Shown: positions 5,066 to 18,408, numbered from the stretch's first letter. The stretch: 52,673 nucleotides of DNA from Candidatus Woesearchaeota archaeon (GCA_964444095.1 CAYUEW010000001.1:1-52673), one strand, 5' to 3'. The notes: generated by a model from the letters alone, not told the origin. Program-made: numbers and translations.

Positions 5066-5083
5066 TTTTATTTTTGATTTCAA

Positions 5084-5100
5084 CGAAACATATTTAAATA
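5084..5100 (+). promoter_or_regulatory. BRE/TATA-like promoter element (cgaaacatatttaaata)
   Basis: A/T-rich TATA-like box with an upstream purine-rich BRE-like cgaaa, ending 20 nt before the ATG at 5120. Confidence 0.45.
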
Positions 5101-5119
5101 TCTTCGTACAATTTCTTGT

Positions 5120-6373: not shown

Positions 6374-6415
6374 TTTATATTTTGTTTAGTCCTGGAAACT
6401 TTATAAAAATTCCCT

Positions 6416-6754
6416 TTATGTTAATATTTCTTTTTTTGTAGAAAATTTTGTTGGTCTAAACATTTTTGATTGTTTGTATAAAATTTCTAAATCTTCTTTT
6501 TTTGCGAATTTAGAAAATTCTGTAGATGCAGATTCTAAAAAGGAAATCATTCTTTCCATGCCGTTTTTTAATAATTCAATATCTTTTTTTATCTCTAGCA
6601 TTTTTTCATTTGTTTTTTCTTTCATTTCAATAAGATTTTGTCCAATTAAGAGTAGCCTATCTTTGAGAATTTTTTGTCTTTCTTCTAAACTTCTCACCTT
6701 AGAATTCATGTCTCCCATTTGCTGTCCAGCCTGAGGATTTGTTTCTTCCGCCAT
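6416..6754 (-). CDS. Small coiled-coil protein, function unknown
   Basis: 112 aa, almost entirely heptad-like charged helix. It is transcribed divergently from the pilus ATPase gene. Confidence 0.4.
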   Translation of the reverse strand: MAEETNPQAGQQMGDMNSKVRSLEERQKILKDRLLLIGQNLIEMKEKTNEKMLEIKKDIELLKNGMERMISFLESASTEFSKFAKKEDLEILYKQSKMFRPTKFSTKKEILT

Positions 6755-6836: not shown

Positions 6837-9125
6837 ATGGAATTTGGACAGGAAACTCCTCTTTATTCTTCAGAGGTGCAAAGAGAAGGTGGTGAAGATG
6901 TTCTTTATATTAATTACCTTGGGGCACCTTATGTGCCGGGGTTAGCCGAGTCGCCAGAAGTTATGGGGAGGACGATTGACGCCCTTATAGAAAATCCAAA
7001 TGTGACGAGGATTGTTTTTGTTCAGCAAAAAAATTATAATTATGATTTTAAAGAAACGGCTTTGCTTTTAGAGGTAGCTCAACTTTATATTTATTTTTTA
7101 AAGCAAGAAGAAATTCTGTCTCAGGCAAAGTTAATTACAAATCAACCGCAATTTTTTACACAGCGTTATAATTCTGTATTTTCTTTTTTGTTTTTGTTGA
7201 AACAAGATCCAATTGCTTCCAGGAGTGAATTAGTGAAGTTAATTATTGAAGCAAGAATTCTTTTAGAGAAAATTGGGGTGGATGCGCAAGTAGACCAGAG
7301 GGGTTATATTCATTTTTTAGAAAGATTATTAAGTAAATTGGAATCAACAGGATTGATACAAGAAGCGCTCCCGCATTTAGAAACATATCAAAAAGGAAGT
7401 CGGGGAATTTATTCTAGAATTTTCCAAGCAGATATCATTCCGAATTTTACTTTTACAAGATTAGTTTCTGATTTGCCAGAAGATGTAGAGATTATTGACC
7501 AGTATGAAATTTCAGGAGATAAAGACGATAAGTCGTTTGTAACAATTTTGAAAAGAAAAAATGAATCCAAATTGGTTTATCATCTTAACCCCCCAGAAAA
7601 TACCTTGACAGAAGAGCAGGGAGTTTTGCTTAATCTTGCGAGGGGAGTTTTAATTGAGCACCAGCCCAAGGCAGAGGAGTTTGTTGATACAGAAAGAACA
7701 CGGCAAGTTTTTTTTAATATTTCTAAAGATTTGTTGCAAGATTTGGCTCAAGCGAAAGGGATTAAATTGGGATATTCTGATTTGAATAAGTTGGCTACTA
7801 TTTTGGTAAGGCACACTATTGGATTTGGATTGATTGAAGTTTTGCTTCAGGATAAAAAATTGCAGGATATTGTTTTGAATGCACCAATTCCATTGCTTAC
7901 AATCTTTGTAAGACATCAAGATTATGATGAATGTTCAACGAATATTTTGCCGAGTCAAGAGGATGTTGATTCTTGGGCTGCAAAGTTTAGAATGCTTTCT
8001 GGGCGCCCATTAGATGAAGCTAATCCGATTCTTGATACCCAATTAGAGATTGGAAAGATAAGGGCGAGAATTGCGATTATACAAAAGCCACTTTCTCCAG
8101 ATGGGTTGGCTTATGCTATTAGGAGACATAGAGATGAGCCTTGGACTTTGCCCCTTTTTGTGAAAAACAAAATGATTAATTCTTTTACTGCGGGTTTGTT
8201 AAGTTTTTTAATTGACGGTGCAAGAACACTTCTTGTTGCAGGAACGAGAAGTTCCGGGAAAACATCTTTATTAGGAAGTTTGTTGTTGGAGATTTCTCCA
8301 AAATCTAGAATTATTGTAATTGAAGATTCATTGGAATTGCCTGTAGAATCTTTGAGGAAATTAAAATATGATATTTTAAGAATGAAAGTTAGATCTGCTT
8401 TGTTGAAAACAACCACAGAAGTTTCTGCAGATGATGGAATAAGAACTAGTTTGAGGTTGGGTGATTCTTGTTTAATTATTGGTGAAGTTAGAAGTGTTGA
8501 AGCTAAGGCATTGTACGAAGCGATGAGAGTTGGGGCGTTGGCAAATGTGGTTGCAGGAACAATTCATGGTGCTTCTCCTTATGGGGTTTTTGATAGAGTT
8601 GTTAATGATTTAGGAGTTCCTGCTACGAGCTTTAAAGCTACAGATATTGTGGCGGTTTGTAATCCGATAAAATCCCCAGATGGTTTACATTCTTGGAGAC
8701 GACTTGTGCAATTAACTGAAGTGAGAAAGCATTGGCAAAAAGACCCCATGGAAGAAAAAGGATTTGTAGATTTATTAAAATATAATATTGATAAAGATGA
8801 GCTTGAACCGAGTGATGATTTGATTAATGGAGAGAGTGAAATAATTAAAAATGTGGCATCGAATGTTCGGGGTTGGGCAGGAAATTGGGATGCGGTCTAT
8901 GATAATATTCTTCTCAGAGGAAAAATTAAACAAGAATTAGTAGACACAGCTGAAAAAACAAAAGATTTTGATTTGCTTGAGGCTAAATTTAATACTCTTG
9001 CTAATCATGCATTTCATGAAATTTCTAGCGAAGTGATAGCAGAAACAGGTCTCCCTTTGAGTGAAGATGTTTATCCTAAATGGAAAGATTGGCTTTCTAA
9101 GCAGATTAAGGGTAGAAAGATTTAA
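6837..9125 (+). CDS. Type II/IV secretion-family ATPase (FlaI/PilB/VirB11-like) with a long N-terminal extension
   Basis: Walker A GTRSSGKTS, Asp box IIVIEDSLEL, Walker B-like CLIIGEVRSVEA and His box GTIHGAS. The ATG at 6837 (MEFGQE) is preferred over the TTG at 6783. Confidence 0.85.
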   Translation: MEFGQETPLYSSEVQREGGEDVLYINYLGAPYVPGLAESPEVMGRTIDALIENPNVTRIVFVQQKNYNYDFKETALLLEVAQLYIYFLKQEEILSQAKLITNQPQFFTQRYNSVFSFLFLLKQDPIASRSELVKLIIEARILLEKIGVDAQVDQRGYIHFLERLLSKLESTGLIQEALPHLETYQKGSRGIYSRIFQADIIPNFTFTRLVSDLPEDVEIIDQYEISGDKDDKSFVTILKRKNESKLVYHLNPPENTLTEEQGVLLNLARGVLIEHQPKAEEFVDTERTRQVFFNISKDLLQDLAQAKGIKLGYSDLNKLATILVRHTIGFGLIEVLLQDKKLQDIVLNAPIPLLTIFVRHQDYDECSTNILPSQEDVDSWAAKFRMLSGRPLDEANPILDTQLEIGKIRARIAIIQKPLSPDGLAYAIRRHRDEPWTLPLFVKNKMINSFTAGLLSFLIDGARTLLVAGTRSSGKTSLLGSLLLEISPKSRIIVIEDSLELPVESLRKLKYDILRMKVRSALLKTTTEVSADDGIRTSLRLGDSCLIIGEVRSVEAKALYEAMRVGALANVVAGTIHGASPYGVFDRVVNDLGVPATSFKATDIVAVCNPIKSPDGLHSWRRLVQLTEVRKHWQKDPMEEKGFVDLLKYNIDKDELEPSDDLINGESEIIKNVASNVRGWAGNWDAVYDNILLRGKIKQELVDTAEKTKDFDLLEAKFNTLANHAFHEISSEVIAETGLPLSEDVYPKWKDWLSKQIKGRKI

Positions 9126-9160
9126 GAAAATTTTTTAAAGAGGAAAAGACTTGATTGAAG

Positions 9161-9703
9161 ATGGCAAAACGTTATGGGATAGATATAGGAAATACGGGGT
9201 ATGAGGATGCTACTTCATTATACAGAGAAGCAGTATGGGATGCAAAAAAAAGTAAGCGGTCTATAAATGGGCCAGCACAGATAGATGTAATTAGAAAATT
9301 TACTGGTGCTGCAGGATTATTTGAGGAAGGAAAAAATTATTCTAAAGCACAAAAAGCTTTAGAAGGTGCTAAAAATTATTTAAGTGATTCTCATATTGGG
9401 GGGGAAATGAATATTCGGTTAGAAAAAAATATAGAAAGTAGGTTAAAAAAAATAGAAGGAAAGATGCCTTCTAAACGAAAAGGGATATTTGTAAATTCCC
9501 CTTTTGTCTTTGCAACTTTTGCAGTTGTTAGTTTGTTGAGCGCATTGTTTTTTATTTCATTTGATTTAACAGGAAATATTATTTTAGGAGATGCTCAAAC
9601 AAATTTGGGATTCTTGGCAGCAGGGTTATTTATGCTGGGTTTAGTGTTTGTATTCTTATATTTTAAAAGTAAAAACAAATTTTTAATTAAGAAATCCAAA
9701 TAA
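9161..9703 (+). CDS. Hypothetical protein: soluble helical N-domain plus two C-terminal TM helices
   Basis: ORF with an upstream aggaaaag RBS-like element. It sits between the ATPase and platform genes. Confidence 0.45.
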   Translation: MAKRYGIDIGNTGYEDATSLYREAVWDAKKSKRSINGPAQIDVIRKFTGAAGLFEEGKNYSKAQKALEGAKNYLSDSHIGGEMNIRLEKNIESRLKKIEGKMPSKRKGIFVNSPFVFATFAVVSLLSALFFISFDLTGNIILGDAQTNLGFLAAGLFMLGLVFVFLYFKSKNKFLIKKSK

Positions 9704-9710
9704 TTTTTCT

Positions 9711-9725
9711 AAACATTTATTAACC
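9711..9725 (+). promoter_or_regulatory. Promoter-like motif aaacatttattaacc (copy 1 of 4)
   Basis: Begins 8 nt after the stop codon of the preceding gene and ends 23 nt before the ATG at 9748. The core AACATTTATTAA recurs at 10071, 12269 and 14558. Confidence 0.5.
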
Positions 9726-9747
9726 TTTTATCCTTAATTTTAAAAAG

Positions 9748-10065
9748 ATGGTGAGCTGGGTTGGTTTTGCATGGCAAGTAGAAATTATTGCAGTAGCAAT
9801 TTTAATTTATGCTTTGGTAGTGTTTTTAAGAGCGATAATAAAATTAGATAAAGAATTTAGATTAGCTCTTTTATTGGTTTTAAGTTCTGTGATAATTAAT
9901 GTGGCTTTGGGGCTTATGATGGGGGTTTTCATAACTTCTGGAGCTGAATCAGAACAATTGATTGGGCTTTGGGTAATTCGTCCTATTGTTACTCTTGTTG
10001 TAGCAGTTTTAATTTTGTTCGGTGCAAGAAAATTTGTGTCTGCAATGAATACAAGAAACGAATAA
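9748..10065 (+). CDS. Small membrane protein (3 TM)
   Basis: Hydrophobic 105-aa ORF with its own promoter-like motif inside the pilus locus. Confidence 0.45.
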   Translation: MVSWVGFAWQVEIIAVAILIYALVVFLRAIIKLDKEFRLALLLVLSSVIINVALGLMMGVFITSGAESEQLIGLWVIRPIVTLVVAVLILFGARKFVSAMNTRNE

Positions 10066-10069
10066 TTCT

Positions 10070-10084
10070 AAACATTTATTAATT
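10070..10084 (+). promoter_or_regulatory. Promoter-like motif aaacatttattaatt (copy 2 of 4)
   Basis: Same core as copy 1, ending 29 nt before the ATG at 10113. Confidence 0.5.
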
Positions 10085-10112
10085 CTATTCTGATTTTATT
10101 TAAAAGAGGAAA

Positions 10113-12269
10113 ATGCCAAAGAAATTAACTGTTGAAGAGGTTCTTAGGAAGCATGGTGGAAAGATAGAGCGCCAGATTGGAGCGATGCCCAAGAAGACGA
10201 ATTATAGTCAAGAATATATTAAATTTAAAAAAGAAATTTCTCCAGAACTCGGGCGTTATGAAAAATGGTGTAGAAGTTTAGGGCAGATTATCAAACTTAA
10301 AGTTTCTAAAAAAGATGAAGATAAAATACGGAAACACCTTGAGATAGCACATTTGAATGTTGAACCTTGGCAATCTTTAACCCTTAGTGTAATGGGTTTT
10401 TTGGCAATGTTCTTGTTAAGTTTAATAATTTCCATAGCAATAACTTTTATTAATGGAAGTTTAGCAGCGTTTCCTTTTTCCTTTTTCATTTTAATGATTG
10501 TATTTTCAATTTTTATTTTTTATTTTGTGAATAATTATCCAGAAAGATTAGCAAATAAATGGCGTCTTAAAGCATCTTCTCAGATGGTTCCTGCAATTTT
10601 GTATATTGTAGTTTACATGCGACATACGCCAAATTTAGAGAGGGCTGTTGCTTTTGCATCGCAACATTTAGAGCCGCCTCTTGCATTGGACTTTAGGAAA
10701 ATTTTCTATAATGTAGAAGTGAGAAAGTTTTCAACGATTAAGGAAAGTTTAGATAATTATTTGGACTCTTGGAAAGATTATTCTCTGGAATTTGTGGAAG
10801 CTTTTCATTTGATTGAAAGTAGTTTATTTGAACCAGATAATGCTCGAAGAATTTCTACTCTTGAAAAAGCATTGCAAGTTGTATTGGATGGAGTTTATGA
10901 TAGGATGTTGAAGTTTACCCATGATGTTAGAAGTCCTTTGACAAATGTTTATATGTTGGGAGTTGTGTTACCTACCTTGGCTTTGGCATTATTACCTCTT
11001 GCATCTGCTATGCTTGGAGGATTATTAACAGGTTATCATATTTTTATTATGTTTAATCTTCTTGTTCCTTTTTTTGTATTTTATCTTACAGATAAAATAA
11101 TGTTGTTAAGACCGGGAGGTTATGGGGAAACAGAATTGTTGGAAAAGAATCAATTTTATGCAGAATATAAAGATAAAAAACATTATGGTAAGGCTTTGCT
11201 GATTTGTTTGCCTTTTTTACTTATTGGACTTTTGCCTTTGATTGCACAATATACGCCGATTATGGAATTGATGGGGTTGCAAAAAGATTTTACCTTTGCA
11301 GATATTGGACTGGGTTTATTTGGAGAGGAAAACTTTTTTGATTTTAAAGAAACTGCAATAGGAATTGTTGGACCTTTTGGGGTGGGTGCTTTGTTATTAG
11401 GAATGTTTATTCCAGTAGGAATGGCTTTATTTTTTATTATAGCATACAAAGATAAAACTAAAAAATTAATTCAAGCGAGGAGGAAGACAAAACAATTAGA
11501 AAAAGAATTTAATAATTCTCTTTTTCAATTAGGGAATCGGATAGGGAATGGTATGCCTCCTGAACTTGCTTTTGGTAGAGTTGCAGAATCTTCTAAGGGA
11601 TTAATGACTGCGGATTTTTTTAGAAGGGTGAATTATAATATTCAGCAAGGGGGATTGAGTGTTGAGAAAGCGATTTTTGATAAGAAGAGGGGAGCCATGG
11701 TTTTGTATCCTTCAAGTATTATTGCGACAAGTATGAGAATTTTGGTCGAGTCTTCGAAGAAAGGTTTGAAGATTGCAGCAATAAGTTTGATGAGCATTTC
11801 AGAGTATGTTAAGAATATGCAAAAGATTACTAACCGACTTAAGGATATGTTAGCAGAGATAGTTTCAGATATGAAAAGTAATATGACTTTCCTTGCACCG
11901 TTGCTTTCTGGGATTGTTGTGGGCTTAGCGTTTATGATTACTTCTATTTTAAACAAATTGAATCTTGCTAGTTTATCTGGGGGAGATGTAGGAATAGGAA
12001 ATCTCGGAAGTATTTTGAATATTTTTGATTTAACGAAAATGATTCCCCCTTATTTCTTGCAAATAATAATTGGTATTTACATAATCCAAATAGTTTTCAT
12101 TCTTACTGGAACTCTTGTTACAATAGATTCTGGAGAAGATAAATTAGAAAAGACCCACAAGGTTGGACAAAATTTGAAAAAAGGAATCTTACTTTACTTT
12201 GTCACAGCAGTTTTATCAACACTTGCGTTATTTGTTTTGAGTTCTGTTGTCTTGGGGAACTTAGGATAA
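10113..12269 (+). CDS. Large polytopic membrane protein, candidate FlaJ/PilC/TadC-like pilus platform
   Basis: 718 aa with two clusters of TM helices separated by soluble helical regions. Its position next to the secretion ATPase matches the canonical ATPase-platform gene pair. No sequence motif was verified by eye. Confidence 0.55.
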   Translation: MPKKLTVEEVLRKHGGKIERQIGAMPKKTNYSQEYIKFKKEISPELGRYEKWCRSLGQIIKLKVSKKDEDKIRKHLEIAHLNVEPWQSLTLSVMGFLAMFLLSLIISIAITFINGSLAAFPFSFFILMIVFSIFIFYFVNNYPERLANKWRLKASSQMVPAILYIVVYMRHTPNLERAVAFASQHLEPPLALDFRKIFYNVEVRKFSTIKESLDNYLDSWKDYSLEFVEAFHLIESSLFEPDNARRISTLEKALQVVLDGVYDRMLKFTHDVRSPLTNVYMLGVVLPTLALALLPLASAMLGGLLTGYHIFIMFNLLVPFFVFYLTDKIMLLRPGGYGETELLEKNQFYAEYKDKKHYGKALLICLPFLLIGLLPLIAQYTPIMELMGLQKDFTFADIGLGLFGEENFFDFKETAIGIVGPFGVGALLLGMFIPVGMALFFIIAYKDKTKKLIQARRKTKQLEKEFNNSLFQLGNRIGNGMPPELAFGRVAESSKGLMTADFFRRVNYNIQQGGLSVEKAIFDKKRGAMVLYPSSIIATSMRILVESSKKGLKIAAISLMSISEYVKNMQKITNRLKDMLAEIVSDMKSNMTFLAPLLSGIVVGLAFMITSILNKLNLASLSGGDVGIGNLGSILNIFDLTKMIPPYFLQIIIGIYIIQIVFILTGTLVTIDSGEDKLEKTHKVGQNLKKGILLYFVTAVLSTLALFVLSSVVLGNLG

Positions 12270-12280
12270 CATTTATTAAT
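12267..12280 (+). promoter_or_regulatory. Promoter-like motif taacatttattaat (copy 3 of 4)
   Basis: Overlaps the stop codon of the platform gene and ends 21 nt before the ATG at 12301. Confidence 0.5.
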
Positions 12281-12300
12281 TATCTGTTGCTTTTTGTTTT

Positions 12301-12504
12301 ATGAAAAAGAGGAGTAAAAATAAAAGATTTTCCTACTACAATTTTTTTCCAAAAAATCGCAAGGCAATTATTTCAGAGTATCTTCCCTGGCTGTTGATTG
12401 CCATTGCTGTTCTTGCAATCCTAATGATAACTATTTTTTTATTAAAGGGACAGGGAGTTTCTTTGATAGACAAGATTAAGGAGTTGCTTGGGGGAGGCAG
12501 ATGA
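12301..12504 (+). CDS. Small single-TM protein, possible atypical prepilin
   Basis: Basic leader ending NRKA, followed by IISEYLPWLLIAIAVLAILMITIFLL. Its stop overlaps the next start (ATGA). Confidence 0.4.
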   Translation: MKKRSKNKRFSYYNFFPKNRKAIISEYLPWLLIAIAVLAILMITIFLLKGQGVSLIDKIKELLGGGR

Positions 12505-13274
12505 CAGAGTTAACTACAAGTCAATTAATAAAAATCATTCTTGGAATTTTTGTTGTAGTTGCAGTAGTGATAGGAGTCTTTTTATTCTTTAAGGGAAATG
12601 TAATTGATTTTTTTAAGAATCTACCTGGAACAGAAGAACCCTCTGGGGGAGCTGGAGCTTCAAAAGAGATAGGAGAAGAAGTTGAGGGAGAGACTCTAGA
12701 AATTCCTGGAGAAGAAGGTGAAGAAGAAACTGATTTGTCTTGCGAAGAATCAGATTGTACTTCTACTCTTCCAGAAGAATTGAGTTGCAGACTTGGAAAT
12801 GTTTTTGGTTATTTGCATAAATGTTCTCGAGGAGAATGTGTTAGAACAAGGGTGAAAAAAAAGATTTATGATTGTGAATTTGGTTGTACTGATGGAGAAT
12901 GTGATGTTTCTAAAGAAGAAGAAGCTGAAGAAGAAATTCCTGAAGAAGAAGATGAAGAAGAAACTGATTTGTCTTGCGAAGAATCAGATTGTACTTCTAC
13001 TCTTCCAGAAGAATTGAGTTGCAGACTTGGAAATGTTTTTGGTTATTTGCATAAATGTTCTCGAGGAGAATGTGTTAGAACAAGGGTGAAAAAAAAGATT
13101 TATGATTGTGAATTTGGTTGTACTGATGGAGAATGTGATGCTTGTTTGCCTACTGGAACTATTATTGGAAAAAATGTTTTGGTGATTGGAACTCCCAGTG
13201 GGTCTTGTTGTGATGAAGCTTATTGTGCTGAAAGAGGGTTTTTGGGAATGTGTAAGGAATATAAGTGTGGATAA
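12501..13274 (+). CDS. N-terminally anchored, Cys-rich acidic protein containing a perfect tandem domain duplication
   Basis: N-terminal TM (IKIILGIFVVVAVVIGVFLFF). Two identical 62-aa Cys-rich units (EEETDLSCEESDC...CTDGECD) are joined by poly-Glu linkers, followed by a Cys-rich C-terminus. Confidence 0.6.
   Translation: MTELTTSQLIKIILGIFVVVAVVIGVFLFFKGNVIDFFKNLPGTEEPSGGAGASKEIGEEVEGETLEIPGEEGEEETDLSCEESDCTSTLPEELSCRLGNVFGYLHKCSRGECVRTRVKKKIYDCEFGCTDGECDVSKEEEAEEEIPEEEDEEETDLSCEESDCTSTLPEELSCRLGNVFGYLHKCSRGECVRTRVKKKIYDCEFGCTDGECDACLPTGTIIGKNVLVIGTPSGSCCDEAYCAERGFLGMCKEYKCG
12719..13140 (+). repeat. Direct duplication: 188 bp, identical by eye, at 12719-12906 and 12953-13140 (period 234 bp)
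   Basis: Base-by-base reading of both copies found no mismatch. The duplication is in-frame (78 codons). Confidence 0.85.
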
Positions 13275-13275
13275 A

Positions 13276-13707
13276 ATGAATAAAAAAGGATTTTTACTTG
13301 GAGAAGAAACTCTGAAAGTGGTGCTTGCGGTAATTGGTATTGGATTTTTAGTTTTTTTCTTAATGTCTCTTTATTATTCTTTTAATCGTAATAAGGATTT
13401 AGAACTTGCAGAATCTTCTTTAAATTATTTAATAGAACAAATTGAGTTAGAGAGCGAAGAAGCAGAAATTTACAATCCCGACAAATGGATATTGGCATCT
13501 TATAATAGGGGAGATATGCCTGAACTTTATTTGGGGAGGGATTGGGAAAATTGTATTTGTATTTGTGAAAAAGATTGTTCCAAAACTCAAAATACTGAAA
13601 TGGTTTGTGTAGAAAGCGAGTATTCTATTTCCCCCGCAAGCATTGAAATTGACTCGCCCTTGAATTTAGAAATTAATCCTATAAATAAAGTGATAACTAA
13701 AAAATAA
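13276..13707 (+). CDS. Pilin-like protein with class III signal (MNKKG|FLLGEE...)
   Basis: KKG followed by about 20 hydrophobic residues, with Glu at +5 relative to the predicted cleavage site. Cys-rich C-terminal part. The ATG at 13276 is 1 nt after the previous stop. Confidence 0.55.
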   Translation: MNKKGFLLGEETLKVVLAVIGIGFLVFFLMSLYYSFNRNKDLELAESSLNYLIEQIELESEEAEIYNPDKWILASYNRGDMPELYLGRDWENCICICEKDCSKTQNTEMVCVESEYSISPASIEIDSPLNLEINPINKVITKK

Positions 13708-13708
13708 A

Positions 13709-13810
13709 ATGGATATAGATGTTTTAATAAAATATTTAATGTGGATTGTTCTTTTTATCTTGGCTTTGACTGGATTATATTTTATGTTTAAAAAATTGGG
13801 GATTATGTAA
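13709..13810 (+). CDS. Small ORF (33 aa, single TM), absent from the ORF track
   Basis: MDIDVLIKYLMWIVLFILALTGLYFMFKKLGIM. It starts 1 nt after the upstream stop, and its TAA overlaps the next ATG (TAATG), so the packing suggests it is real. Confidence 0.35.
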   Translation: MDIDVLIKYLMWIVLFILALTGLYFMFKKLGIM

Positions 13811-14550
13811 TGAAAAAAATTAACAAAAAAGGGGAGATGACTTCTAAGCAAATAGTTACGCTTATAATTTTGATTACTAGTTTTGTGGTGCTCTTGATTT
13901 TATTTTTTAGATTGGATTTGGGGAGAGTAACTGATTCTGAAATTTGTCATAACTCTGTTGTTTTATCTGCTGCAGGTAAAAGTTTGGTAAGTGAACTTGA
14001 TTGTAAAACAGCATATGTTTGTATTTCTGGGGGAGAAGAATGTGAAGGAATTGTTCCGACAGAGACAGCTAAAATTAATATGAAAAAAGAAGAAAAAATC
14101 GTTAAGGAAGAAATTATGCAAGTTTTAGCTGATGAGATGGTAGATTGTTGGTGGATGTTTGGGGAGGGAGAATTAATTTATGCCCCTAACGCCGACGGGT
14201 ATCATTGTGCACTTTGTAATGTTGTGAAATTTGATTCTTCTATTCAAGAAAAATTTCCAGAATTAACTTATGCAGAATTTTATAATTATTTATCTATAAT
14301 AGAAAAAACAGAAAATAAAAATTATTTAGAATATCTTTATGGAACTTATAATTTGGAAATGGTGAAAGAAAAAAATAAGAAAATAAACATAGATACAGAT
14401 AAGATTTCTACTGCAGAAAAATTTGTCGTTCTCACAGGAATTGATCCTAGGATAGTATTGGTTGATAAAGTTATTTTTCCTTGGCTTGTAAAGTATGACC
14501 AGATAAAAACAAAAACAAAGTGTGAGGTTTTTGATATTACTCAAGCTTAA
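13810..14550 (+). CDS. Pilin-like protein with class III signal (MKKINKKG|EMTSKQIVTLIIL...)
   Basis: KKG plus a hydrophobic helix. The 246-aa ectodomain has several Cys pairs. Confidence 0.5.
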   Translation: MKKINKKGEMTSKQIVTLIILITSFVVLLILFFRLDLGRVTDSEICHNSVVLSAAGKSLVSELDCKTAYVCISGGEECEGIVPTETAKINMKKEEKIVKEEIMQVLADEMVDCWWMFGEGELIYAPNADGYHCALCNVVKFDSSIQEKFPELTYAEFYNYLSIIEKTENKNYLEYLYGTYNLEMVKEKNKKINIDTDKISTAEKFVVLTGIDPRIVLVDKVIFPWLVKYDQIKTKTKCEVFDITQA

Positions 14551-14555
14551 TTATG

Positions 14556-14570
14556 AAACATTTATTAATC
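14556..14570 (+). promoter_or_regulatory. Promoter-like motif gaaacatttattaat (copy 4 of 4)
   Basis: Same core as the other copies, ending 20 nt before the ATG at 14590. Confidence 0.5.
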
Positions 14571-14589
14571 TTATTTGGTTTTTTGTCTT

Positions 14590-14994
14590 ATGAGGAAACT
14601 TTCTAAAAAGGGGAATATTCTAACAGAGTATATTATTTTTATTGTCTTAAATTTATTTTTTGCAACAATTCTTATTTTATTTTTAGCTTCGCGGATGGGC
14701 GCGGGGGGGGTTTTGGAAGAGGGATATGCAAAGCAAATAGCATTAAGTTTGGATGCTGCAAAACCAGGGATGAGAATTTATATTGGAATGGAAGGTGCAT
14801 TTGAGGTAGCAAAAAAAGAATTGGGAGAGGGAAGCATTGGAGGATTGGTAGGAATTGAAGGGAATATTGTGACGGTGCGACTTCAGGAAGGTTTGGGATA
14901 TTCTTATTCTTTTTTTAATAATGTGGATGTTACAACTTATTTAGATCCTTCAACTAATTTGGGTTATATCTTTATTGTGGACGAAATAAAATGA
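14590..14994 (+). CDS. Pilin-like protein with class III signal (MRKLSKKG|NILTEYIIFIV...)
   Basis: KKG plus a hydrophobic helix, with Glu at +5. The ATG at 14590 is preferred over the TTG at 14575. Its stop overlaps the next start (ATGA). Confidence 0.55.
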   Translation: MRKLSKKGNILTEYIIFIVLNLFFATILILFLASRMGAGGVLEEGYAKQIALSLDAAKPGMRIYIGMEGAFEVAKKELGEGSIGGLVGIEGNIVTVRLQEGLGYSYSFFNNVDVTTYLDPSTNLGYIFIVDEIK

Positions 14995-16121
14995 AAAATA
15001 AAAAAGGAGATAAAATATTTTCAGCGTATTGGTTTATAATTCTTTTTGCAGTAGCTGCTGCTGTGGTTTATATGGTTTCTATTTTTTATGGGATGCCTTA
15101 TGATGCAAGGAATTTTGAAGCAGAAATACTAACAAACCAAATTGCAGATTGTTTATCCCAAGGAGGATATCTTAAAGGTAATTCTTTTTTGGGTTCTGAT
15201 TCTTTAAGCATGTTTTTAGAAGAATGTGATTTGACTTTTGATGTTGAAGATACTTATGGCTGGGAAGAACAAGGGCAATATTATGTAGAAGTTCATTTAT
15301 ATGATTTTGATGAAAATGCTTCAACAGGAATAGGGGAAGAAGTTTCTAATTTTATTGTGGGAAACAGTAACCTAAAAACTTCTTTCATGATGGAAATAGC
15401 AGCGCAAGAGAAAGGAAATAAGGAGTTGGTGGTGATTCATTATACTGCGGGGTATACTTTGGCAGGGGCAATAAATGAGTTTGATGGAAATGAGCATAAA
15501 AGTATTCATTATATTATAGATAGGGATGGAACAGTAGTAACGAGAAAAGATGAAGATAAAACTGCTTATCACGCTGGATGTGAATTTGGTAGACCTTATT
15601 GTGAAGAAGGTAATGATGTAACCCCTGCTCCTGGAGAAGATTGTTGTAGAAGGGGAACAAACTCAAGGTCTATTGGAATTGAGTTAATTAATCTGGGTTA
15701 TGCTTGTGGTTGGGAAAATAATAAAGAACTTTGTCAAAATTTAGGAGTGGTTGAGTTAGATTACTTTTTTCTTGAAGCAACATCTGACAAAGAAGGTTTT
15801 TGTGGAGTTAGTACAGGAATTTGGGAGGAATATTCTGATGAACAAATAGATGCTTTATCTACTTTAGTTGCAGGAGTGGTTTCCCAGAATAATATTCCCA
15901 TTGATAGAGAACATATAGTTGGGCATGATGAGATGGATCCTTGTCGGAAGAAAGATCCTGGTCCAGCATTTCCTTGGGAGGTATTTATGGGGAAAGTTAA
16001 GGAAAGAGCAAAATTAGACTCTTCTGTTGGAAGAAATTTTTATGTTTTAGATAGAGCAGGAAATCAGTATGTGGTTCAAATTTTAACAATTGTAGATAAA
16101 GTAGAAAAAAATGCTAAATAA
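14991..16121 (+). CDS. Prepilin-signal protein carrying an N-acetylmuramoyl-L-alanine amidase domain (Amidase_2 / AmpD / PGRP fold)
   Basis: N-terminus is MKNKKG|DKIFSAYWFIILFAVAAAVVYMV. Amidase motifs: VVIHYTAG, HYIIDRDGTVV, AYHAG, NSRSIGIELIN, EQIDAL..LV and IVGHDEMDPCRKKDPGPAFPW. The last compares with the AmpD block GHsDIaPgRKtDPGp.FpW. Confidence 0.8.
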   Translation: MKNKKGDKIFSAYWFIILFAVAAAVVYMVSIFYGMPYDARNFEAEILTNQIADCLSQGGYLKGNSFLGSDSLSMFLEECDLTFDVEDTYGWEEQGQYYVEVHLYDFDENASTGIGEEVSNFIVGNSNLKTSFMMEIAAQEKGNKELVVIHYTAGYTLAGAINEFDGNEHKSIHYIIDRDGTVVTRKDEDKTAYHAGCEFGRPYCEEGNDVTPAPGEDCCRRGTNSRSIGIELINLGYACGWENNKELCQNLGVVELDYFFLEATSDKEGFCGVSTGIWEEYSDEQIDALSTLVAGVVSQNNIPIDREHIVGHDEMDPCRKKDPGPAFPWEVFMGKVKERAKLDSSVGRNFYVLDRAGNQYVVQILTIVDKVEKNAK

Positions 16122-16647
16122 AATAAATTTAAAAAAAGCGTCAATCGGGGAAACAATGACTTGGGTAGTGGCAACAGCAATTGTCGTCGTCGTTTTGCTT
16201 GCTTCTGTATTTATTACTTCTCTTTTAGCAAAAACTAAATCTGTTGATAGGAATTTTTTATCTGGAGGAGGAGAAGATTTGGTGGTGACAAAATCTTTGT
16301 CTGCTTATTTGTTAACAGAAGAAAATGGAGAAAACGTTTTTGAGCAATTGATGGATAATAAAGATTCAGAAGATATTGGAGGAATTTTTGGAGAATTTAA
16401 TGGAAATTTAGCAGAAGATATTTTCTTGAAATTATATGTTGAAGATTATAGTGCAAGTAAAATTTGGTTAGGAACTTATTTGAAAGGATATGGTCATAGA
16501 GGAAATAGTTATTTTCGTACATCCCCAGTGGATTTTATTCTGGAATCTGGAATTCTGCTAATAGAAGTAAAAAAAGGGCAAACTTTTGTTGTGAATCAAA
16601 TAGAACTTGATGAAAAGAATTGGTTTGTGGTGGCGTTAACAAATTAA
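16111..16647 (+). CDS. Pilin-like protein with class III signal (MLNKINLKKA|SIGETMTWVVATAIVVVVLL...)
   Basis: KKA plus a hydrophobic helix. It overlaps the amidase gene by 11 nt. Confidence 0.5.
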   Translation: MLNKINLKKASIGETMTWVVATAIVVVVLLASVFITSLLAKTKSVDRNFLSGGGEDLVVTKSLSAYLLTEENGENVFEQLMDNKDSEDIGGIFGEFNGNLAEDIFLKLYVEDYSASKIWLGTYLKGYGHRGNSYFRTSPVDFILESGILLIEVKKGQTFVVNQIELDEKNWFVVALTN

Positions 16648-16648
16648 A

Positions 16649-16984
16649 ATGAAATTAAAAATGAAAAATAAAAAAGCAGATATTACGATTACAATTTTAG
16701 TAATATTGATTACTTCAATTTGTATTTTAACCATAACTAGTTTTCTTGTATCTAAGGAAAAAGTTCAATCAAATTATTTGGGGTTGGAACTTTTTGAAGG
16801 AATGAGTGCTGATGTAGAAACATTTTATTTTTATTTAAATGCAGGATTTACTGAAAGCGAAGCAGCAGAAAAAATTGGAGCAGAAATGGAAGGGAGCAAG
16901 TTGGTAATTGATAAAATTTTTAAAGAGAATAAAGATGATTTAGTTTCTGTGCATTATAACATGAGTGTCGTTAGAGGGTCCTAA
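16649..16984 (+). CDS. Pilin-like protein with class III signal (..MKNKKA|DITITILVILITSICIL...)
   Basis: KKA plus a hydrophobic helix. It starts 1 nt after the upstream stop. An alternative ATG exists at 16661. Confidence 0.5.
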   Translation: MKLKMKNKKADITITILVILITSICILTITSFLVSKEKVQSNYLGLELFEGMSADVETFYFYLNAGFTESEAAEKIGAEMEGSKLVIDKIFKENKDDLVSVHYNMSVVRGS

Positions 16985-17032
16985 AAATTGTTTAAGCAGA
17001 AGTTTTATAAATAAAATAATCTTAAATTGAAT

Positions 17033-17383
17033 ATGCAGAATAAAAGAGGGCAGGGGTTGAGTACTAATGCAATTATACTTATTGTTCTAGGAGTTGTAAT
17101 CTTGGTTGTGATGATAGTCGGATTTACTATGGGTTGGTCTAATATTGCACCGTGGATATCAAATGAAAATGTTGATACAATTGTTACTCAATGTCAAACA
17201 GCTTGTTCGACGATGAGCGTGTATGATTTCTGTACTAAAAAAAGAGAATTAACTGCAAGCGGTTTGCCTGAGGGTGAAAAGAGTGTTACTGAAGATTGTC
17301 AATTCTTTGCCGATACAGCAGGATATGAAAGTTATGGGATAGCAAAATGTCCTAGTTTAACTTGTCCTACAATAGTAAGTTAA
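17033..17383 (+). CDS. Small pilin with a canonical archaeal class III signal (MQNKRG|QGLSTNAIILIVLGVVILVV...); candidate major pilin
   Basis: KRGQ motif plus a hydrophobic helix. 116 aa with 8 Cys in the globular part. It has its own TATA-like box (gttttataaata) about 25 nt upstream. Confidence 0.6.
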   Translation: MQNKRGQGLSTNAIILIVLGVVILVVMIVGFTMGWSNIAPWISNENVDTIVTQCQTACSTMSVYDFCTKKRELTASGLPEGEKSVTEDCQFFADTAGYESYGIAKCPSLTCPTIVS

Positions 17384-17409
17384 TTAAATTAATTTCTTGT
17401 GTGTTGTTT

Positions 17410-17532
17410 ATGGATTATGCATTTTCTCAAAAAAGAAATAAAGGTAAAAGTAAAAAAAAGGAAAAGAAAAAACATCCATATAAAAAAGGTGGAAGTGCGA
17501 GGGTGAGATTGCCAAAAGAAAAATCAAAATAG
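17410..17532 (+). CDS. Possible small, very basic ORF (40 aa; MDYAFSQKRNKGKSKKKEKKKHPYKKGGSARVRLPKEKSK)
   Basis: ATG-to-TAG ORF in the 179-nt gap between the pilin and peptidase genes. It is A-rich and low-complexity, so it may be fortuitous. Confidence 0.15.
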   Translation: MDYAFSQKRNKGKSKKKEKKKHPYKKGGSARVRLPKEKSK

Positions 17533-17562
17533 TTTTATAAATTCCTTTTTCTAATTCTTATT

Positions 17563-18408
17563 ATGTTTGAGGTGATTTTTTTATGGGGTTTGGCTTTAGT
17601 TTGGATTATATTCGCAACAATTCAAGATTGGAAAAGTAGGGAGATTGCTAATTGGCTTAGTTTTTCTTTGATAGTTTTTGCATTGGGATTTAGATTTTTT
17701 TATTCATTGTTTATGGGGGGTAATTTTTCATTTTTTTATCAGGGATTGTTTGGATTAGGAATCTTTTTTGTATTAGGAAATATTTTTTATTATGGAAAAA
17801 TTTTTGCAGGAGGTGACGCAAAATTAATGTATGCCATGGGTGCTGTGTTGCCCATTTATGGAACCATTATAGAGAATGCTCAATTTTTTCTTACATTCTT
17901 ACTTTTATTCTTTTTCGCCGGTGCTGTTTATAGTTTGATTGTTAGTGGGGGGTTAGCGATAAGGAATTTTAAAAATTTTAAAAAAGAATTTGGTAAACAA
18001 TTTAAGAAAAATAAAAAATTATTTTATCTTACTTTGTGTGCTGGTTTAGGAATTATGCTTTTGGGTTTTGTTGAAGCTTCATTTTTTATGTTTGGAGTTT
18101 TGCTTTTTATTACAGCGTATTTATATATTTTTGCAAAAGCAGTTGATGAATCTTGTATGGTTAAGACGATGAATGTAAAAAAATTAACAGAAGGAGATTG
18201 GCTTTACTCTGATTTAAAATTCGGAAGGAAAAAAATCAAAGCAACATGGGACGGGCTCACAAAAAAAGATATAATTGCTATAAGAAAGAATTGTAAAAAT
18301 GTCAAAATAAAACAAGGAGTGCCTTTTACCCCTGCATTTTTGTTAAGTTTAATAATTTTATTTTTATTTTACTTATTGGATATTAATCTATGGGCTCTTT
18401 TGTTTTAA
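17563..18408 (+). CDS. A24-family prepilin/preflagellin peptidase (PibD/FlaK-like)
   Basis: Polytopic protein with the first catalytic Asp context ATIQDWKSREIANW and the second FAGGDAKLMYAMG (GxGD-type). Confidence 0.8.
   Translation: MFEVIFLWGLALVWIIFATIQDWKSREIANWLSFSLIVFALGFRFFYSLFMGGNFSFFYQGLFGLGIFFVLGNIFYYGKIFAGGDAKLMYAMGAVLPIYGTIIENAQFFLTFLLLFFFAGAVYSLIVSGGLAIRNFKNFKKEFGKQFKKNKKLFYLTLCAGLGIMLLGFVEASFFMFGVLLFITAYLYIFAKAVDESCMVKTMNVKKLTEGDWLYSDLKFGRKKIKATWDGLTKKDIIAIRKNCKNVKIKQGVPFTPAFLLSLIILFLFYLLDINLWALLF

What the first reader, a model, noticed from the sequence alone, without database searches (positions are those of the whole stretch)
6837..18408. Self-contained type IV pilus-like locus with an unusually large, Cys-rich set of prepilin-signal proteins
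Seen directly: a secretion ATPase (Walker A GTRSSGKTS, IIVIEDSLEL, GEVRSVEA, GTIHGAS) and a 718-aa polytopic protein in the platform position. There is also an A24 peptidase with both Asp motifs (IQDWKSREI; AGGDAKLM). Between them lie about ten short ORFs packed with ATGA/TAATG overlaps. Seven of these begin M-x(2-8)-[KR][KR]-[GA] immediately followed by about 20 hydrophobic residues: KKG|FLLGE, KKG|EMTS, KKG|NILTE, KKG|DKIF, KKA|SIGE, KKA|DITI and KRG|QGLS. Two have Glu at +5 as in bacterial type IV pilins, which is not the usual archaeal pattern. No archaellin (FlaB) or FlaF/G/H/C/D/E-like genes are present, so this is a pilus or pseudopilus rather than an archaellum. Apart from the amidase, none of the ectodomains resembles anything I recognise.
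Basis: partly seen in the sequence, partly recalled or inferred. Interest (0 to 1): 0.7.

Follow-up and report, generated by a model that had tools for sequence, protein, structure and literature searches.

The report
Pacearchaeal type IV pilus gene cluster
This stretch is a complete, conserved gene set for a type IV pilus in a tiny symbiotic (DPANN, Pacearchaeota-type) archaeon; standard annotation misses most of it, and one pilus subunit carries an enzyme that cuts bacterial cell walls, hinting that these archaea attach to or feed on bacteria.

Summary
Window 6837-18408 (+ strand) encodes four kinds of component.

- **ATPase:** a FlaI/TadA/CpaF-family secretion ATPase.
- **Platform:** a 718-aa polytopic protein. 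It is a very divergent T2SSF/FlaJ-type platform, shown by family-level Pfam hits and fold, not by its own Pfam score.
- **Peptidase:** a FlaK/TadV-type A24 prepilin peptidase with both catalytic Asp residues.
- **Prepilin-like proteins:** nine, not seven, with [KR][KR][GA] followed by a hydrophobic helix.

The gene order and every prepilin motif are kept one-to-one in the five fully covered related loci from Pacearchaeota/Woesearchaeota genomes. This is a chromosomal core locus, not a chance pattern or a mobile element.

- Glu at +5 already occurs in Methanococcus pilins.
- The 22-Cys protein (257 aa) has no prepilin motif. Its Cys-rich part is a variable add-on with a 234-bp tandem duplication.
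- A 67-aa Flp-like prepilin was missed.
- The amidase is a domain inserted into a conserved minor pilin in only one subclade (about 28 protein clusters). All AmpD-type catalytic residues are invariant.

Best reading: a host-contact pilus whose modular minor pilin presents a peptidoglycan amidase. It is a new variant of a known kind. None of the prepilin-like proteins matches a Pfam family, the major-pilin family is unnamed, and I found no description in the literature searched.

The parts
6837..9125 (+). Secretion ATPase, 762 aa, FlaI/TadA/CpaF/afGspE family. It has a roughly 280-aa N-terminal extension.
   Evidence: Pfam T2SSE 1.8e-15. NCBIfam TadA-family 1.7e-37 and FlaI 2.4e-35, both below the equivalog cut-offs. 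PDB matches: afGspE 2oap 1e-26, CpaF 4.6e-23, FlaI 5e-14. 74-83% identical in orthologous loci.
9155..9703 (+). 182-aa protein with a soluble N-terminal part and C-terminal TM helices. Variable accessory gene, not part of the conserved core.
   Evidence: No family hit. Absent from most orthologous loci; only a weak 31% match in L008, located elsewhere.
9748..10065 (+). 105-aa membrane protein with three TM helices. Accessory, found only in the closest relative.
   Evidence: Three hydrophobic segments. 73% identical orthologue in L005 only.
10113..12269 (+). Platform protein, 718 aa. Very divergent T2SSF/FlaJ/TadB-C-type polytopic membrane protein.
   Evidence: No Pfam hit at default thresholds. 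More than 3000 homologues, the top 120 at least 70% identical. 1079 cluster representatives at 50% identity. 23 of 46 diverse members hit PF00482. Profile against PDB finds EpsF only. AF2 pLDDT 85, with Foldseek matches to EpsF/OutF/PilC at probability 0.97-1.0. Weak in-register N-half/C-half similarity.
12301..12504 (+). 67-aa Flp-like small prepilin (…NRKA|IISEYLPW…). Second candidate for the major subunit.
   Evidence: Motif and hydrophobic core. Orthologues of 49-53 aa carry KRG|IVADY, KKA|IVADY or KKG|IISDY. A TATA-like TTTATTAAT lies 29 nt upstream.
12501..13274 (+). 257-aa bitopic membrane protein without a prepilin motif. The N-terminal TM helix is conserved; the Cys-rich C-terminal part (22 Cys) is variable.
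   Evidence: Orthologues are 53-56 aa (TM helix only) in L006, L009 and L013, 121 aa in L005, and 270-348 aa in L007 and L012. Strain variants of 179 aa occur in L002 and L004.
12698..13140 (+). Tandem duplication, 234 bp x 1.9 copies at 99% identity. It duplicates a 78-aa, 8-Cys module of the 257-aa protein.
   Evidence: TRF. Single-copy forms occur in independent assemblies.
13276..13707 (+). 143-aa prepilin-like protein, MNKKG|FLLGEE. Phe at +1 and Glu at +5 as in bacterial pilins. 5 Cys.
   Evidence: All orthologues have [GA]|FLL[AG]EE and 6-7 Cys. 31-48% identity.
13810..14550 (+). 246-aa prepilin-like protein, KKG|EMTS, 8 Cys. Putative minor pilin.
   Evidence: Orthologues have [KR][KR][GA]|E[ILM]T[ST], and 8 Cys in six of the seven loci. 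No Pfam hit.
14590..14994 (+). 134-aa prepilin-like protein, KKG|NILTE, no Cys. First gene of a transcription unit.
   Evidence: TTTATTAAT lies 29 nt upstream.
14991..16121 (+). 376-aa modular minor pilin, KKG|DKIFS. The pilin module is split by an inserted Amidase_2 domain.
   Evidence: Alignment with amidase-free orthologues of 152-191 aa. 28 full-length fusion homologues. AF2 model: N-terminal helix, two beta-strands, the amidase, then two closing beta-strands.
15423..15965 (+). Amidase_2 (N-acetylmuramoyl-L-alanine amidase, AmpD/AmpDh2 type) domain, residues 145-325 of the 376-aa protein.
   Evidence: Pfam 4.7e-24, 85.6 bits against a cut-off of 26. PDB AmpDh2 2.4e-11. Foldseek AmpDh2/AmpD/endolysin amidases 1e-8, probability 1.0. 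H150, E231, H312 and D322 are invariant and K320 is at least 90% conserved in 28 sequences.
16111..16647 (+). 178-aa prepilin-like protein, KKA|SIGET, no Cys. Putative minor pilin.
   Evidence: Orthologues have [KR][KR][AS]|Q I [SP][DE]T.
16649..16984 (+). 111-aa prepilin-like protein, KKA|DITIT. Putative minor pilin.
   Evidence: Orthologues have K[KR][GA]|[DN]IPI.
17033..17383 (+). 116-aa prepilin (MQNKRG|QGLSTNAIILI), 6 invariant Cys. Best candidate for the major pilin.
   Evidence: The most conserved of the pilin-like set, 44-68% identity. 383 homologues, all unnamed and without a Pfam domain. G6|Q7 and six Cys are invariant. It has its own TATA-like box 29 nt upstream.
17410..17532 (+). 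40-aa highly basic peptide, conserved between the major pilin gene and the peptidase gene. Role unknown.
   Evidence: Orthologues in L005, L006, L009 and L013. No Pfam hit.
17563..18408 (+). A24 prepilin peptidase, 281 aa, FlaK/TadV type (no methyltransferase domain).
   Evidence: Pfam 2e-11. NCBIfam FlaK 3.3e-11. PDB FlaK 3s0x 2.4e-7 with both Asp motifs aligned. D22 and D85 present.
17004..17012 (+). TATA-box-like TTTATAAAT. One of five such motifs in the locus; the others are at 10075, 12272, 14561 and 17534.
   Evidence: Four of them lie exactly 29 nt before an ATG. 18 matches in the window against 9.3 expected. That these are promoters of leaderless mRNAs is inference from the general archaeal TATA position.

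Best explanation
**What it is.** This is the chromosomal type IV pilus (type IV filament) gene cluster of a Pacearchaeota/Woesearchaeota-type DPANN archaeon.

**How it most likely works.**
1. The FlaK/TadV-type A24 peptidase removes the short basic leader after the [KR][KR][GA] site of nine prepilin-like proteins.
2. The FlaI/TadA-like ATPase, docked on the divergent T2SSF-type platform, extracts the processed subunits from the membrane. It polymerises them through their N-terminal hydrophobic helices.
3. The shaft is most likely built from the 116-aa disulfide-bonded pilin (17033-17383). The 67-aa Flp-like protein is the alternative.
4. The other seven prepilin-like proteins are each kept as a single orthologue in fixed order. 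They act as minor pilins that prime and cap the filament.
5. In this lineage one minor pilin (14991-16121) is a modular pilin. A catalytically intact AmpD/AmpDh2-type peptidoglycan amidase is inserted into its beta-sheet. The filament, probably its tip, would therefore present a cell-wall-cutting enzyme to bacterial cells for attachment, local wall opening or feeding.

**Shown:** the identities of the components, the prepilin motifs, their conservation, the domain insertion and the intact catalytic residues.

**Inferred:** processing, filament formation, which subunit is major, tip location and the bacterial target.
For: **Core components.** ATPase. Platform. Peptidase.

**Prepilin-like proteins.** Nine N-termini clustered in 5.1 kb. 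Each is kept in the orthologues. The complete gene order is kept in the five fully covered loci, L005, L006, L008, L009 and L013.

**Chromosomal core.** The locus has housekeeping neighbours (Hef, EF-1beta, NDK, RadA, SRP54), which are also syntenic, and even GC content.

**Major pilin candidate.** Invariant G|Q site and three Cys pairs. It is the most conserved of the set and has its own TATA-like box.

**Amidase.** It is an insertion into a conserved pilin. The fusion is kept in 28 protein clusters with invariant H150, E231, H312 and D322. The fold matches AmpDh2 and AmpD.

**Context from the literature.**
- Pacearchaeota are enriched in the >2.5 um size fraction, read as host attachment (bioRxiv 10.1101/2020.05.14.094862).
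- Pacearchaeota and Woesearchaeota carry other murein-degrading proteins, suggesting bacterial hosts (PMC8204110; PMC12352652).
- Grafting functional modules on pilins is established in bacteria, and GspK has a domain inserted in the pilin beta-sheet (PMC8179133).
Against: - No pilin family profile (Pfam Class_IIIsignal, Pilin_N, N_methyl) matches any of the nine proteins, even at E<=10.
- No signal-peptide predictor was available, so cleavage is inferred from motif, context and conservation only.
- The window platform protein alone is not significant against T2SSF (E=0.019).
- There is no expression, proteomic or imaging evidence for a filament.
- The amidase is absent from most orthologous loci. 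It is therefore an add-on, not the core function.
- Whether the amidase sits at the tip, or is even incorporated into the filament, is untested.
- In a relative with a 40% identical platform, the ATPase-platform pair stands without pilin genes nearby.
Confidence: 0.8

Rival explanations
1. A DNA-uptake pseudopilus, working like the ComG system of monoderm bacteria. A short filament made by the same machinery captures environmental DNA as a nucleotide source for an organism with minimal biosynthesis.
For: The gene order (ATPase, platform, a row of pilin genes) resembles a comG operon. The ATPase gives a weak ComGA hit, 1.5e-11. Pacearchaeota are proposed to live on scavenged nucleotides (PMC8204110).
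Against: No ComEA, ComEC or DprA-like protein was detected among the large ORFs of the window that were scanned, or in the locus. The ATPase is much closer to TadA, CpaF, FlaI and afGspE than to ComGA. A peptidoglycan amidase on a pilin has no obvious role in DNA uptake. The two functions are not mutually exclusive.
Confidence: 0.1
2. A bindosome-like surface assembly, as in the Sulfolobus Bas system. The class III signals serve to anchor enzymes and binding proteins in a cell-surface structure rather than to build a long pilus.
For: An enzyme (the amidase) carries a class-III-like signal. A 611-aa protein elsewhere in the window also starts MKNKRG|QITIF. The ATPase gives a BasE hit of 6e-20.
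Against: The BasE score is 71 bits against a cut-off of 1000, far below the TadA and FlaI hits. No substrate-binding-protein domains are present. Eight of the nine prepilin-like proteins are small and domain-less, as pilins are. The set is kept one-to-one in the related loci, as minor-pilin sets are.
Confidence: 0.07
3. The short ORFs are ordinary signal-anchored or Sec-secreted membrane proteins. Their resemblance to prepilins is a consequence of AT-rich, Lys-rich coding.
For: No pilin profile matches them. The genome is 32% GC, so Lys-rich N-termini are common.
Against: The [KR][GA] residue pair sits immediately before the hydrophobic helix in all nine proteins. It is kept in the orthologues although the ectodomains have diverged to 30-50% identity. 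The genes lie between an ATPase-platform pair and an A24 peptidase, whose only known substrates are such signals. The motif is strongly clustered: 8-9 of 13 filter hits lie in 10% of the window.
Confidence: 0.03
4. A reduced archaellum, that is, a rotary swimming organelle.
For: The ATPase hits the FlaI model (2.4e-35) and the peptidase hits FlaK.
Against: No archaellin and no FlaC/D/E, FlaF, FlaG, FlaH or FlaX homologues. The FlaI score is 122 bits against an equivalog cut-off of 550.
Confidence: 0.01

Closest known systems
Archaeal type IV pili of the Epd type (Methanococcus maripaludis) and the uncharacterised archaeal FlaI/FlaJ-plus-pilin loci catalogued by Makarova, Koonin and Albers 2016 (PMC4858521)
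   Same: - FlaI-like ATPase, FlaJ/TadC-like platform, dedicated A24 peptidase without a methyltransferase domain.
- Several small pilins with short basic leaders ending in G/A.
- Gln at +1 in the putative major pilin.
- A small major pilin plus several minor pilins (PMC3875500).
   Different: - No DUF361/Class_IIIsignal profile match.
- All nine prepilin genes, the ATPase, the platform and the peptidase lie in one conserved array.
- The platform is about 150 aa longer than typical FlaJ and is not detected by Pfam.
- The putative major pilin has three conserved disulfides and no Glu at +5.
- The lineage (Pacearchaeota) is not covered by that census.
Bacterial Tad/Flp (type IVc) pilus
   Same: - The ATPase's best family and structure matches include TadA and CpaF.
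- Truncated TadV-like peptidase.
- A 67-aa (about 45 aa mature) pilin-like protein with an acidic-Tyr pair just after the cleavage site, like the Flp E5-Y6 (PMC3244431).
   Different: - The motif is [GA]xxx[DE]Y, one residue shorter than Flp G/xxxxEY.
- No TadZ, RcpA secretin, RcpB/C, TadD or TadE/F/G profile hits.
- A single fused platform protein instead of TadB plus TadC.
Modular type IV pilins of bacteria (S. sanguinis PilB/PilC; GspK with a domain inserted in the pilin beta-sheet) (PMC8179133)
   Same: A functional module is grafted on a small pilin module. As in GspK, the module is inserted within the beta-sheet rather than appended. The expected location is the filament tip.
   Different: The organism is archaeal. 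The module is an Amidase_2 peptidoglycan hydrolase; the paper's main text does not mention amidase, hydrolase or peptidoglycan modules, and the only enzymatic module it names in the passages read is a peptidase. There is no bacterial N-methylation motif (IPR012902).
AmpDh2/AmpD/AmiD and phage Amidase_2 endolysins
   Same: Same fold (Foldseek 1e-8, probability 1.0). Zn ligands His-His-Asp plus catalytic Glu and Lys are conserved.
   Different: The domain is embedded in a pilin scaffold and has extra Cys-rich loops (residues about 197-225 and 238-275). There is no separate peptidoglycan-binding domain. The host organism has no peptidoglycan of its own as far as is known for archaea (general knowledge).
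Secreted peptidoglycan hydrolases of archaea (PMC12352652) and the giant murein-transglycosylase proteins of Pacearchaeota/Woesearchaeota (PMC8204110)
   Same: An archaeal enzyme aimed at bacterial cell wall, in the same lineages. It supports the idea of bacterial partners or prey.
   Different: Those enzymes are Sec/Tat-secreted or giant surface proteins. Here the enzyme is delivered as a subunit of a type IV filament, an export route not reported in those surveys, whose signal-peptide results cover Sec and Tat only.

Membership tests
Type IV filament superfamily (archaeal type IV pilus) | PilB/GspE/FlaI/TadA-family hexameric ATPase with Walker A, Walker B, Asp and His boxes | tested here: met
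   Pfam T2SSE 56.9 bits against a cut-off of 24.9. PDB afGspE 1e-26, CpaF 4.6e-23, FlaI 5e-14. The motifs can be read in the sequence.
Type IV filament superfamily (archaeal type IV pilus) | Polytopic platform protein with T2SSF (GspF/PilC/FlaJ/TadB-C) domains | tested here: met
   The window protein alone is sub-threshold (E=0.019, 15.4 bits against 25.2). However, 23 of 46 family members hit PF00482, best 3.2e-10. The family profile finds only EpsF in the PDB. The AF2 model matches the EpsF, OutF and PilC cytoplasmic domains at probability 0.97-1.0 and TM 0.65-0.75. The second (N-terminal) repeat is supported only weakly (hhalign E=0.012).
Type IV filament superfamily (archaeal type IV pilus) | A24 prepilin peptidase with two catalytic aspartates | tested here: met
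   Pfam 44.7 bits against 26.5. D22 and D85 (GGD) align with the FlaK active-site motifs.
Type IV filament superfamily (archaeal type IV pilus) | Subunits with class III signal peptides: short basic leader, G/A at -1, then about 20 hydrophobic residues | tested here: met
   Met at motif level in nine ORFs and kept in the orthologues. No dedicated predictor (FlaFind, PilFind, SignalP 6) was available, and no pilin Pfam profile hits.
Type IV filament superfamily (archaeal type IV pilus) | Leader actually cleaved and subunits polymerised into a filament | not testable with these tools
   Needs N-terminal proteomics and microscopy.
Archaellum | Archaellin (FlaB/ArlB) genes and FlaF/G/H plus FlaX or FlaC/D/E accessory genes | tested here: not met
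   No such Pfam or NCBIfam hits for any ORF of the locus. The FlaI equivalog score is 122 bits against a cut-off of 550.
Bacterial Tad/Flp pilus | Flp pilin of about 60 aa with G/xxxxEY | tested here: inconclusive
   The 67-aa protein and its 49-53-aa orthologues carry [GA]xxx[DE]Y, one residue short of the Flp spacing. The Flp definition is taken from PMC3244431.
Bacterial Tad/Flp pilus | TadZ, RcpA secretin, TadD and TadE/F/G pseudopilins | tested here: not met
   No hits. TadA TIGR03819 scores 129 bits against a cut-off of 373.
Amidase_2 (N-acetylmuramoyl-L-alanine amidase, AmpD/T7-lysozyme type) | Pfam PF01510 above the gathering score, and the fold | tested here: met
   85.6 bits against 26. 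Foldseek AmpDh2 1.4e-8, AmpD 5e-8, LysC TM 0.72.
Amidase_2 (N-acetylmuramoyl-L-alanine amidase, AmpD/T7-lysozyme type) | Zn ligands His, His, Asp and catalytic Glu/Lys | tested here: met
   H150, H312, D322 and E231 are invariant and K320 is at least 90% conserved in 28 fusion proteins. They align with AmpDh2. The assignment of residue roles rests on general knowledge of AmpD.
Amidase_2 (N-acetylmuramoyl-L-alanine amidase, AmpD/T7-lysozyme type) | Hydrolysis of the MurNAc-L-Ala bond of peptidoglycan | not testable with these tools
   Needs an enzyme assay.
Modular pilins (sensu Raynaud et al. 2021) | N-terminal pilin module plus an extra functional module not specific to pilus biology | tested here: met
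   Amidase-free orthologues of 152-191 aa define the pilin module. The amidase is inserted between its beta-strands.
Modular pilins (sensu Raynaud et al. 2021) | Bacterial N-terminal methylation motif IPR012902 / Pfam N_methyl | tested here: not met
   No N_methyl hit. This is expected for an archaeal class III signal.
Sulfolobus bindosome (Bas) system | BasE/BasF equivalogs and sugar-binding proteins with class III signals | tested here: not met
   BasE scores 71 bits against a cut-off of 1000. No substrate-binding-protein domains are present.

The most novel reading that the evidence does not exclude
A DPANN archaeon uses a type IV pilus as a delivery device for a cell-wall enzyme. A minor pilin carrying an active peptidoglycan amidase sits at the pilus tip and opens the sacculus of a bacterial host. 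That would make this Pacearchaeota subclade cross-domain episymbionts or predators of bacteria. The wider cluster, unmatched by Pfam except for its ATPase, peptidase and amidase domains, would be the long-sought attachment organelle of the Pacearchaeota/Woesearchaeota radiation. One study stated that these organisms lack type IV pilus components.
Probability: 0.3. Interest if true: 0.8.

Novelty: new variant of a known kind. Interest (0 to 1): 0.55.

Why it matters
- **Unknown hosts.** Pacearchaeota and Woesearchaeota are abundant, uncultivated, host-dependent archaea. Their hosts and attachment machinery are unknown.
- **A literature statement this contradicts.** A groundwater cryo-TEM study assigned pili-bearing ultra-small cells to CPR bacteria, on the grounds that type IV pilus components are 'missing in DPANN genomes'. 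This locus shows that a complete and highly conserved pilus system is present (platform at least 70% identical across the 120 best-matching protein clusters). It goes unnoticed because the platform and all the pilins fall outside current profiles.
- **A testable clue to the partner.** An archaeon has no obvious use for a MurNAc-L-Ala amidase other than on bacterial walls. The amidase-bearing pilin therefore points to a bacterial partner or prey for one subclade. It also extends the 'modular pilin' principle to archaea and to a lytic enzyme.
- **Usable markers.** The nine conserved families and the platform family could be turned into profiles to annotate thousands of DPANN genomes.

Tried and rejected
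1. **Default Pfam and NCBIfam scans** of the platform and all small ORFs gave nothing useful. A relaxed scan at E<=10 still gave no pilin family.
2. **Sequence profiles against the PDB.** The platform family profile gave only EpsF at E=0.47. The major-pilin profile gave only a non-significant archaeal Pilin_N hit at E about 1.
3. **Global Foldseek E-values** for the 718-aa model were poor (best 0.28). Only the domain-level matches to EpsF, OutF and PilC are informative.
4. **Origin of the amidase.** I tried to name its closest non-pilin relatives (Polysacc_deac_1 + Amidase_2 proteins). Cluster look-up gave no names, and one contig gave no clear taxon. The origin is left open.
5. **Distant platform homologues** gave short contigs or an ATPase-platform pair without pilin genes. 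The age of the full array is therefore bounded only to the Pacearchaeota-type clade.
6. **Mobile element or virus:** rejected because of housekeeping synteny and even GC content.
7. **Archaellum:** rejected (see the membership test).
8. **The 2096-aa giant protein** as the murein-transglycosylase family described for these lineages: no Pfam support.
9. **Literature searches** for a prior description of this locus in Pacearchaeota found none.

Full report
**Observation.** Window 6837-18408 carries an uninterrupted + strand array of 15 ORFs. The quoted motifs are all present.
- The 762-aa product of 6837-9125 has the Walker A, Walker B, Asp-box and His-box strings. It matches Pfam T2SSE (1.8e-15), NCBIfam TadA-family and FlaI models (1.7e-37 and 2.4e-35, both below the equivalog cut-offs), and the solved ATPases afGspE, CpaF and FlaI.
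- The 281-aa product of 17563-18408 is an A24 peptidase. Its D22 and D85 align with the catalytic motifs of FlaK.
- A strict home-made filter finds 13 class-III-like N-termini among 156 ORFs of at least 50 aa in the whole window. Eight lie within 12301-17383, and the ninth (KKG|FLLGEE) fails only on charged residues at +6 and +9.

**Source organism.**
- The window is 30-34% GC throughout.
- It is flanked by archaeal housekeeping genes: Hef helicase/nuclease, EF-1beta, NDK, RadA, SRP54 and FtsY.
- It is identical to part of a 100-kb metagenome contig.
- Homologues of the 718-aa protein come from MAGs named Pacearchaeota, Woesearchaeota or Nanoarchaeota.

**The platform protein.** The 718-aa protein has no Pfam or NCBIfam hit at normal thresholds. 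It is nevertheless one of the best-conserved proteins of the lineage.
- It has more than 3000 homologues, and the top 120 are at least 70% identical over the full length. There are 1079 cluster representatives at 50% identity.
- In an alignment of 46 diverse members (A1), 23 hit PF00482 T2SSF individually, best 3.2e-10. The window protein reaches E=0.019 at residues 472-584.
- The family profile's only PDB match is the cytoplasmic domain of GspF/EpsF.
- The AlphaFold model (pLDDT 85, pTM 0.83) matches the EpsF, OutF and PilC cytoplasmic domains with probability 0.97-1.00 and target TM 0.65-0.75. Its top-ranked hit is the PilC chain of the T4aP machine model.
- The N- and C-terminal halves align weakly but in register, as expected for the duplicated T2SSF architecture.

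I conclude that it is a divergent FlaJ/TadB-C-type platform.

**Conservation of the array.** Five loci from other species that cover the region (L005, L006, L008, L009, L013) keep the same order. That order is ATPase, platform, 67-aa, 257-aa-type, 143, 246, 134, 376-type, 178, 111 and 118-aa proteins, a 40-aa basic peptide, the A24 peptidase, and a convergent HIT gene.
- In these five loci every orthologue keeps the [KR][KR/N][GA] site directly before the hydrophobic helix, with only one or two exceptions at the -1 residue. This holds although the ectodomains are only 30-55% identical.
- The two partial, more distant loci (L007, L012) match only some of the genes. Their N-termini mostly show the same motif.
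It is Flp-like in size, with an acidic-Tyr pair one residue closer to the cleavage site than in Flp.
- The 116-aa protein (MQNKRG|QGLSTNAIILI) has 383 homologues, all unnamed and without a Pfam domain. G|Q and six Cys are invariant. It is the most conserved of the set.
- The 9-mer TTTATWAAT lies exactly 29 nt before the ATGs of the 67-, 134- and 116-aa genes and of the peptidase gene, and 38 nt before the platform gene. I read these as TATA boxes of mostly leaderless transcription units (inference). In other genomes, unrelated genes are inserted at just these unit borders.

**The amidase.**
- Residues 145-325 of the 376-aa protein are Amidase_2 (4.7e-24).
- Orthologues in most genomes are 152-191 aa and lack this domain. 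The alignment shows the amidase inserted between the N-terminal two-thirds and the last two beta-strands of a conserved pilin module. The model shows the same arrangement.
- The fusion occurs in about 28 protein clusters.
- H150, E231, H312 and D322 are invariant and K320 is nearly so. These are the AmpD-type Zn and catalytic residues.
- The fold matches AmpDh2, AmpD and phage amidase endolysins.
- It is therefore a modular pilin in the sense established for bacteria (PMC8179133), with an insertion topology like that of GspK.

**The Cys-rich 257-aa protein.**
- It has no prepilin motif.
- Only its N-terminal TM helix is conserved. Orthologues range from 53 to 348 aa.
- The window copy carries a 234-bp tandem duplication at 99% identity, which is single-copy in two other assemblies.
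- This is either real strain polymorphism or an assembly collapse. I cannot tell which.

**Mechanism.**
- Shown: all core parts of a type IV filament system, nine substrates with conserved cleavage-site motifs, and an intact amidase built into one of them.
- Inferred: the peptidase trims the leaders; the ATPase and platform polymerise a shaft of the 116-aa pilin (or the 67-aa Flp-like protein); the other seven form a priming or tip complex; and the amidase is displayed on the filament and acts on bacterial peptidoglycan.

Three literature points fit a host-contact role.
- Pacearchaeota behave as strongly host-attached in size fractionation.
- The same lineages encode other murein-degrading proteins.
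- He et al. stated that type IV pilus components are missing in DPANN genomes. This locus contradicts that statement for this clade.

**Comparison with known systems.** The locus meets the defining features of an archaeal type IV pilus. It fails those of an archaellum, a bacterial Tad system and the Sulfolobus bindosome (see the membership table).
- Glu at +5 is not un-archaeal, because Methanococcus pilins have it.
- The system is closest in design to Epd/Tad-type pili.
- It differs in four ways: its all-in-one conserved array, its divergent long platform, its disulfide-rich pilins that match no profile, and its amidase-bearing modular pilin.

**Verdict.** This is a new variant of a known kind: ordinary in principle (an archaeal type IV pilus), but undescribed for this large lineage. 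The amidase pilin is a new and testable feature. Interest 0.55.

Noticed in passing
window 43467-45302 and 45299-51589 (+): A 611-aa protein begins MKNKRG|QITIFIIIAIVLV, a class-III-like signal much like that of the putative major pilin. Its gene overlaps the start of a 2096-aa, 42-Cys protein with a Sec-type signal. Neither has any Pfam hit. They may be further substrates of, or partners for, the pilus system, or host-interaction surface proteins.
   Followed up: partly
window 17410-17532 (+): A 40-aa, extremely basic peptide (…KKKEKKKHPYKKGG…) is conserved between the putative major pilin gene and the A24 peptidase gene in L005, L006, L009 and L013. It has no family match and its function is unknown.
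   Followed up: partly
window 12698-13140 (+): A 234-bp tandem duplication (1.9 copies, 99% identical) duplicates an 8-Cys module of the 257-aa membrane protein. Other assemblies of the same population (L002, L004) encode a 179-aa single-copy form. This is either strain polymorphism or an assembly collapse.
   Followed up: partly
window 12272, 14561, 17004, 17534, 21245 (+): TTTATWAAT starts exactly 29 nt upstream of the ATG of four pilus genes. It has the same spacing before the publicly called start (about 21274) of the RadA-like gene. This suggests TATA boxes and leaderless mRNAs as the rule in this genome. There are 18 matches in the window against 9.3 expected.
   Followed up: partly
window 4565-6754 (both strands): Two small polytopic membrane proteins (166 and 190 aa, + strand) and two coiled-coil proteins (226 and 112 aa, - strand, divergent from the ATPase gene) keep their position next to the ATPase in L006, L008 and L013. 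L017 (41% platform identity) has genes of matching size, strand and order there. They could be unrecognised parts of the machinery.
   Followed up: no
L013 (DATKUW010000085.1): A contig labelled 'Bacillota bacterium' carries the complete archaeal pilus locus with 67% platform identity. The MAG is probably mis-binned or mislabelled.
   Followed up: no
L006 7056-9987 and 13930-15345, 17391-21129; L008 9231-9935 and 14146-16477; L005 13995-14867: In other genomes, unrelated genes are inserted at three fixed junctions of the locus: ATPase|platform, 246|134 and 111|118. These junctions coincide with the predicted transcription-unit borders. From their N-terminal sequences (not profile-tested), the inserted genes look like an HTH-regulator pair, a methyltransferase, a glycosyltransferase and secreted proteins.
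   Followed up: partly
window 39188-41647 (-) and 22406-24106 (+): There are further large proteins with no significant Pfam match (the 566-aa one has only a sub-threshold fn3 hit, E=0.023), apparently secreted or anchored. One is an 819-aa protein with a Sec-type signal, 16 Cys and a poly-basic C-terminal tail. The other is a 566-aa Asn/Thr-rich protein with a C-terminal TM anchor. Together with the pilus locus, a large share of this window encodes uncharacterised surface proteins.
   Followed up: no
L020 (ENA ERZ23510489 NODE_213): In a relative whose platform is 40% identical, the ATPase-platform pair stands alone, with no pilin or peptidase genes within 10 kb. The all-in-one array is therefore specific to the Pacearchaeota-type clade of the window.
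   Followed up: partly
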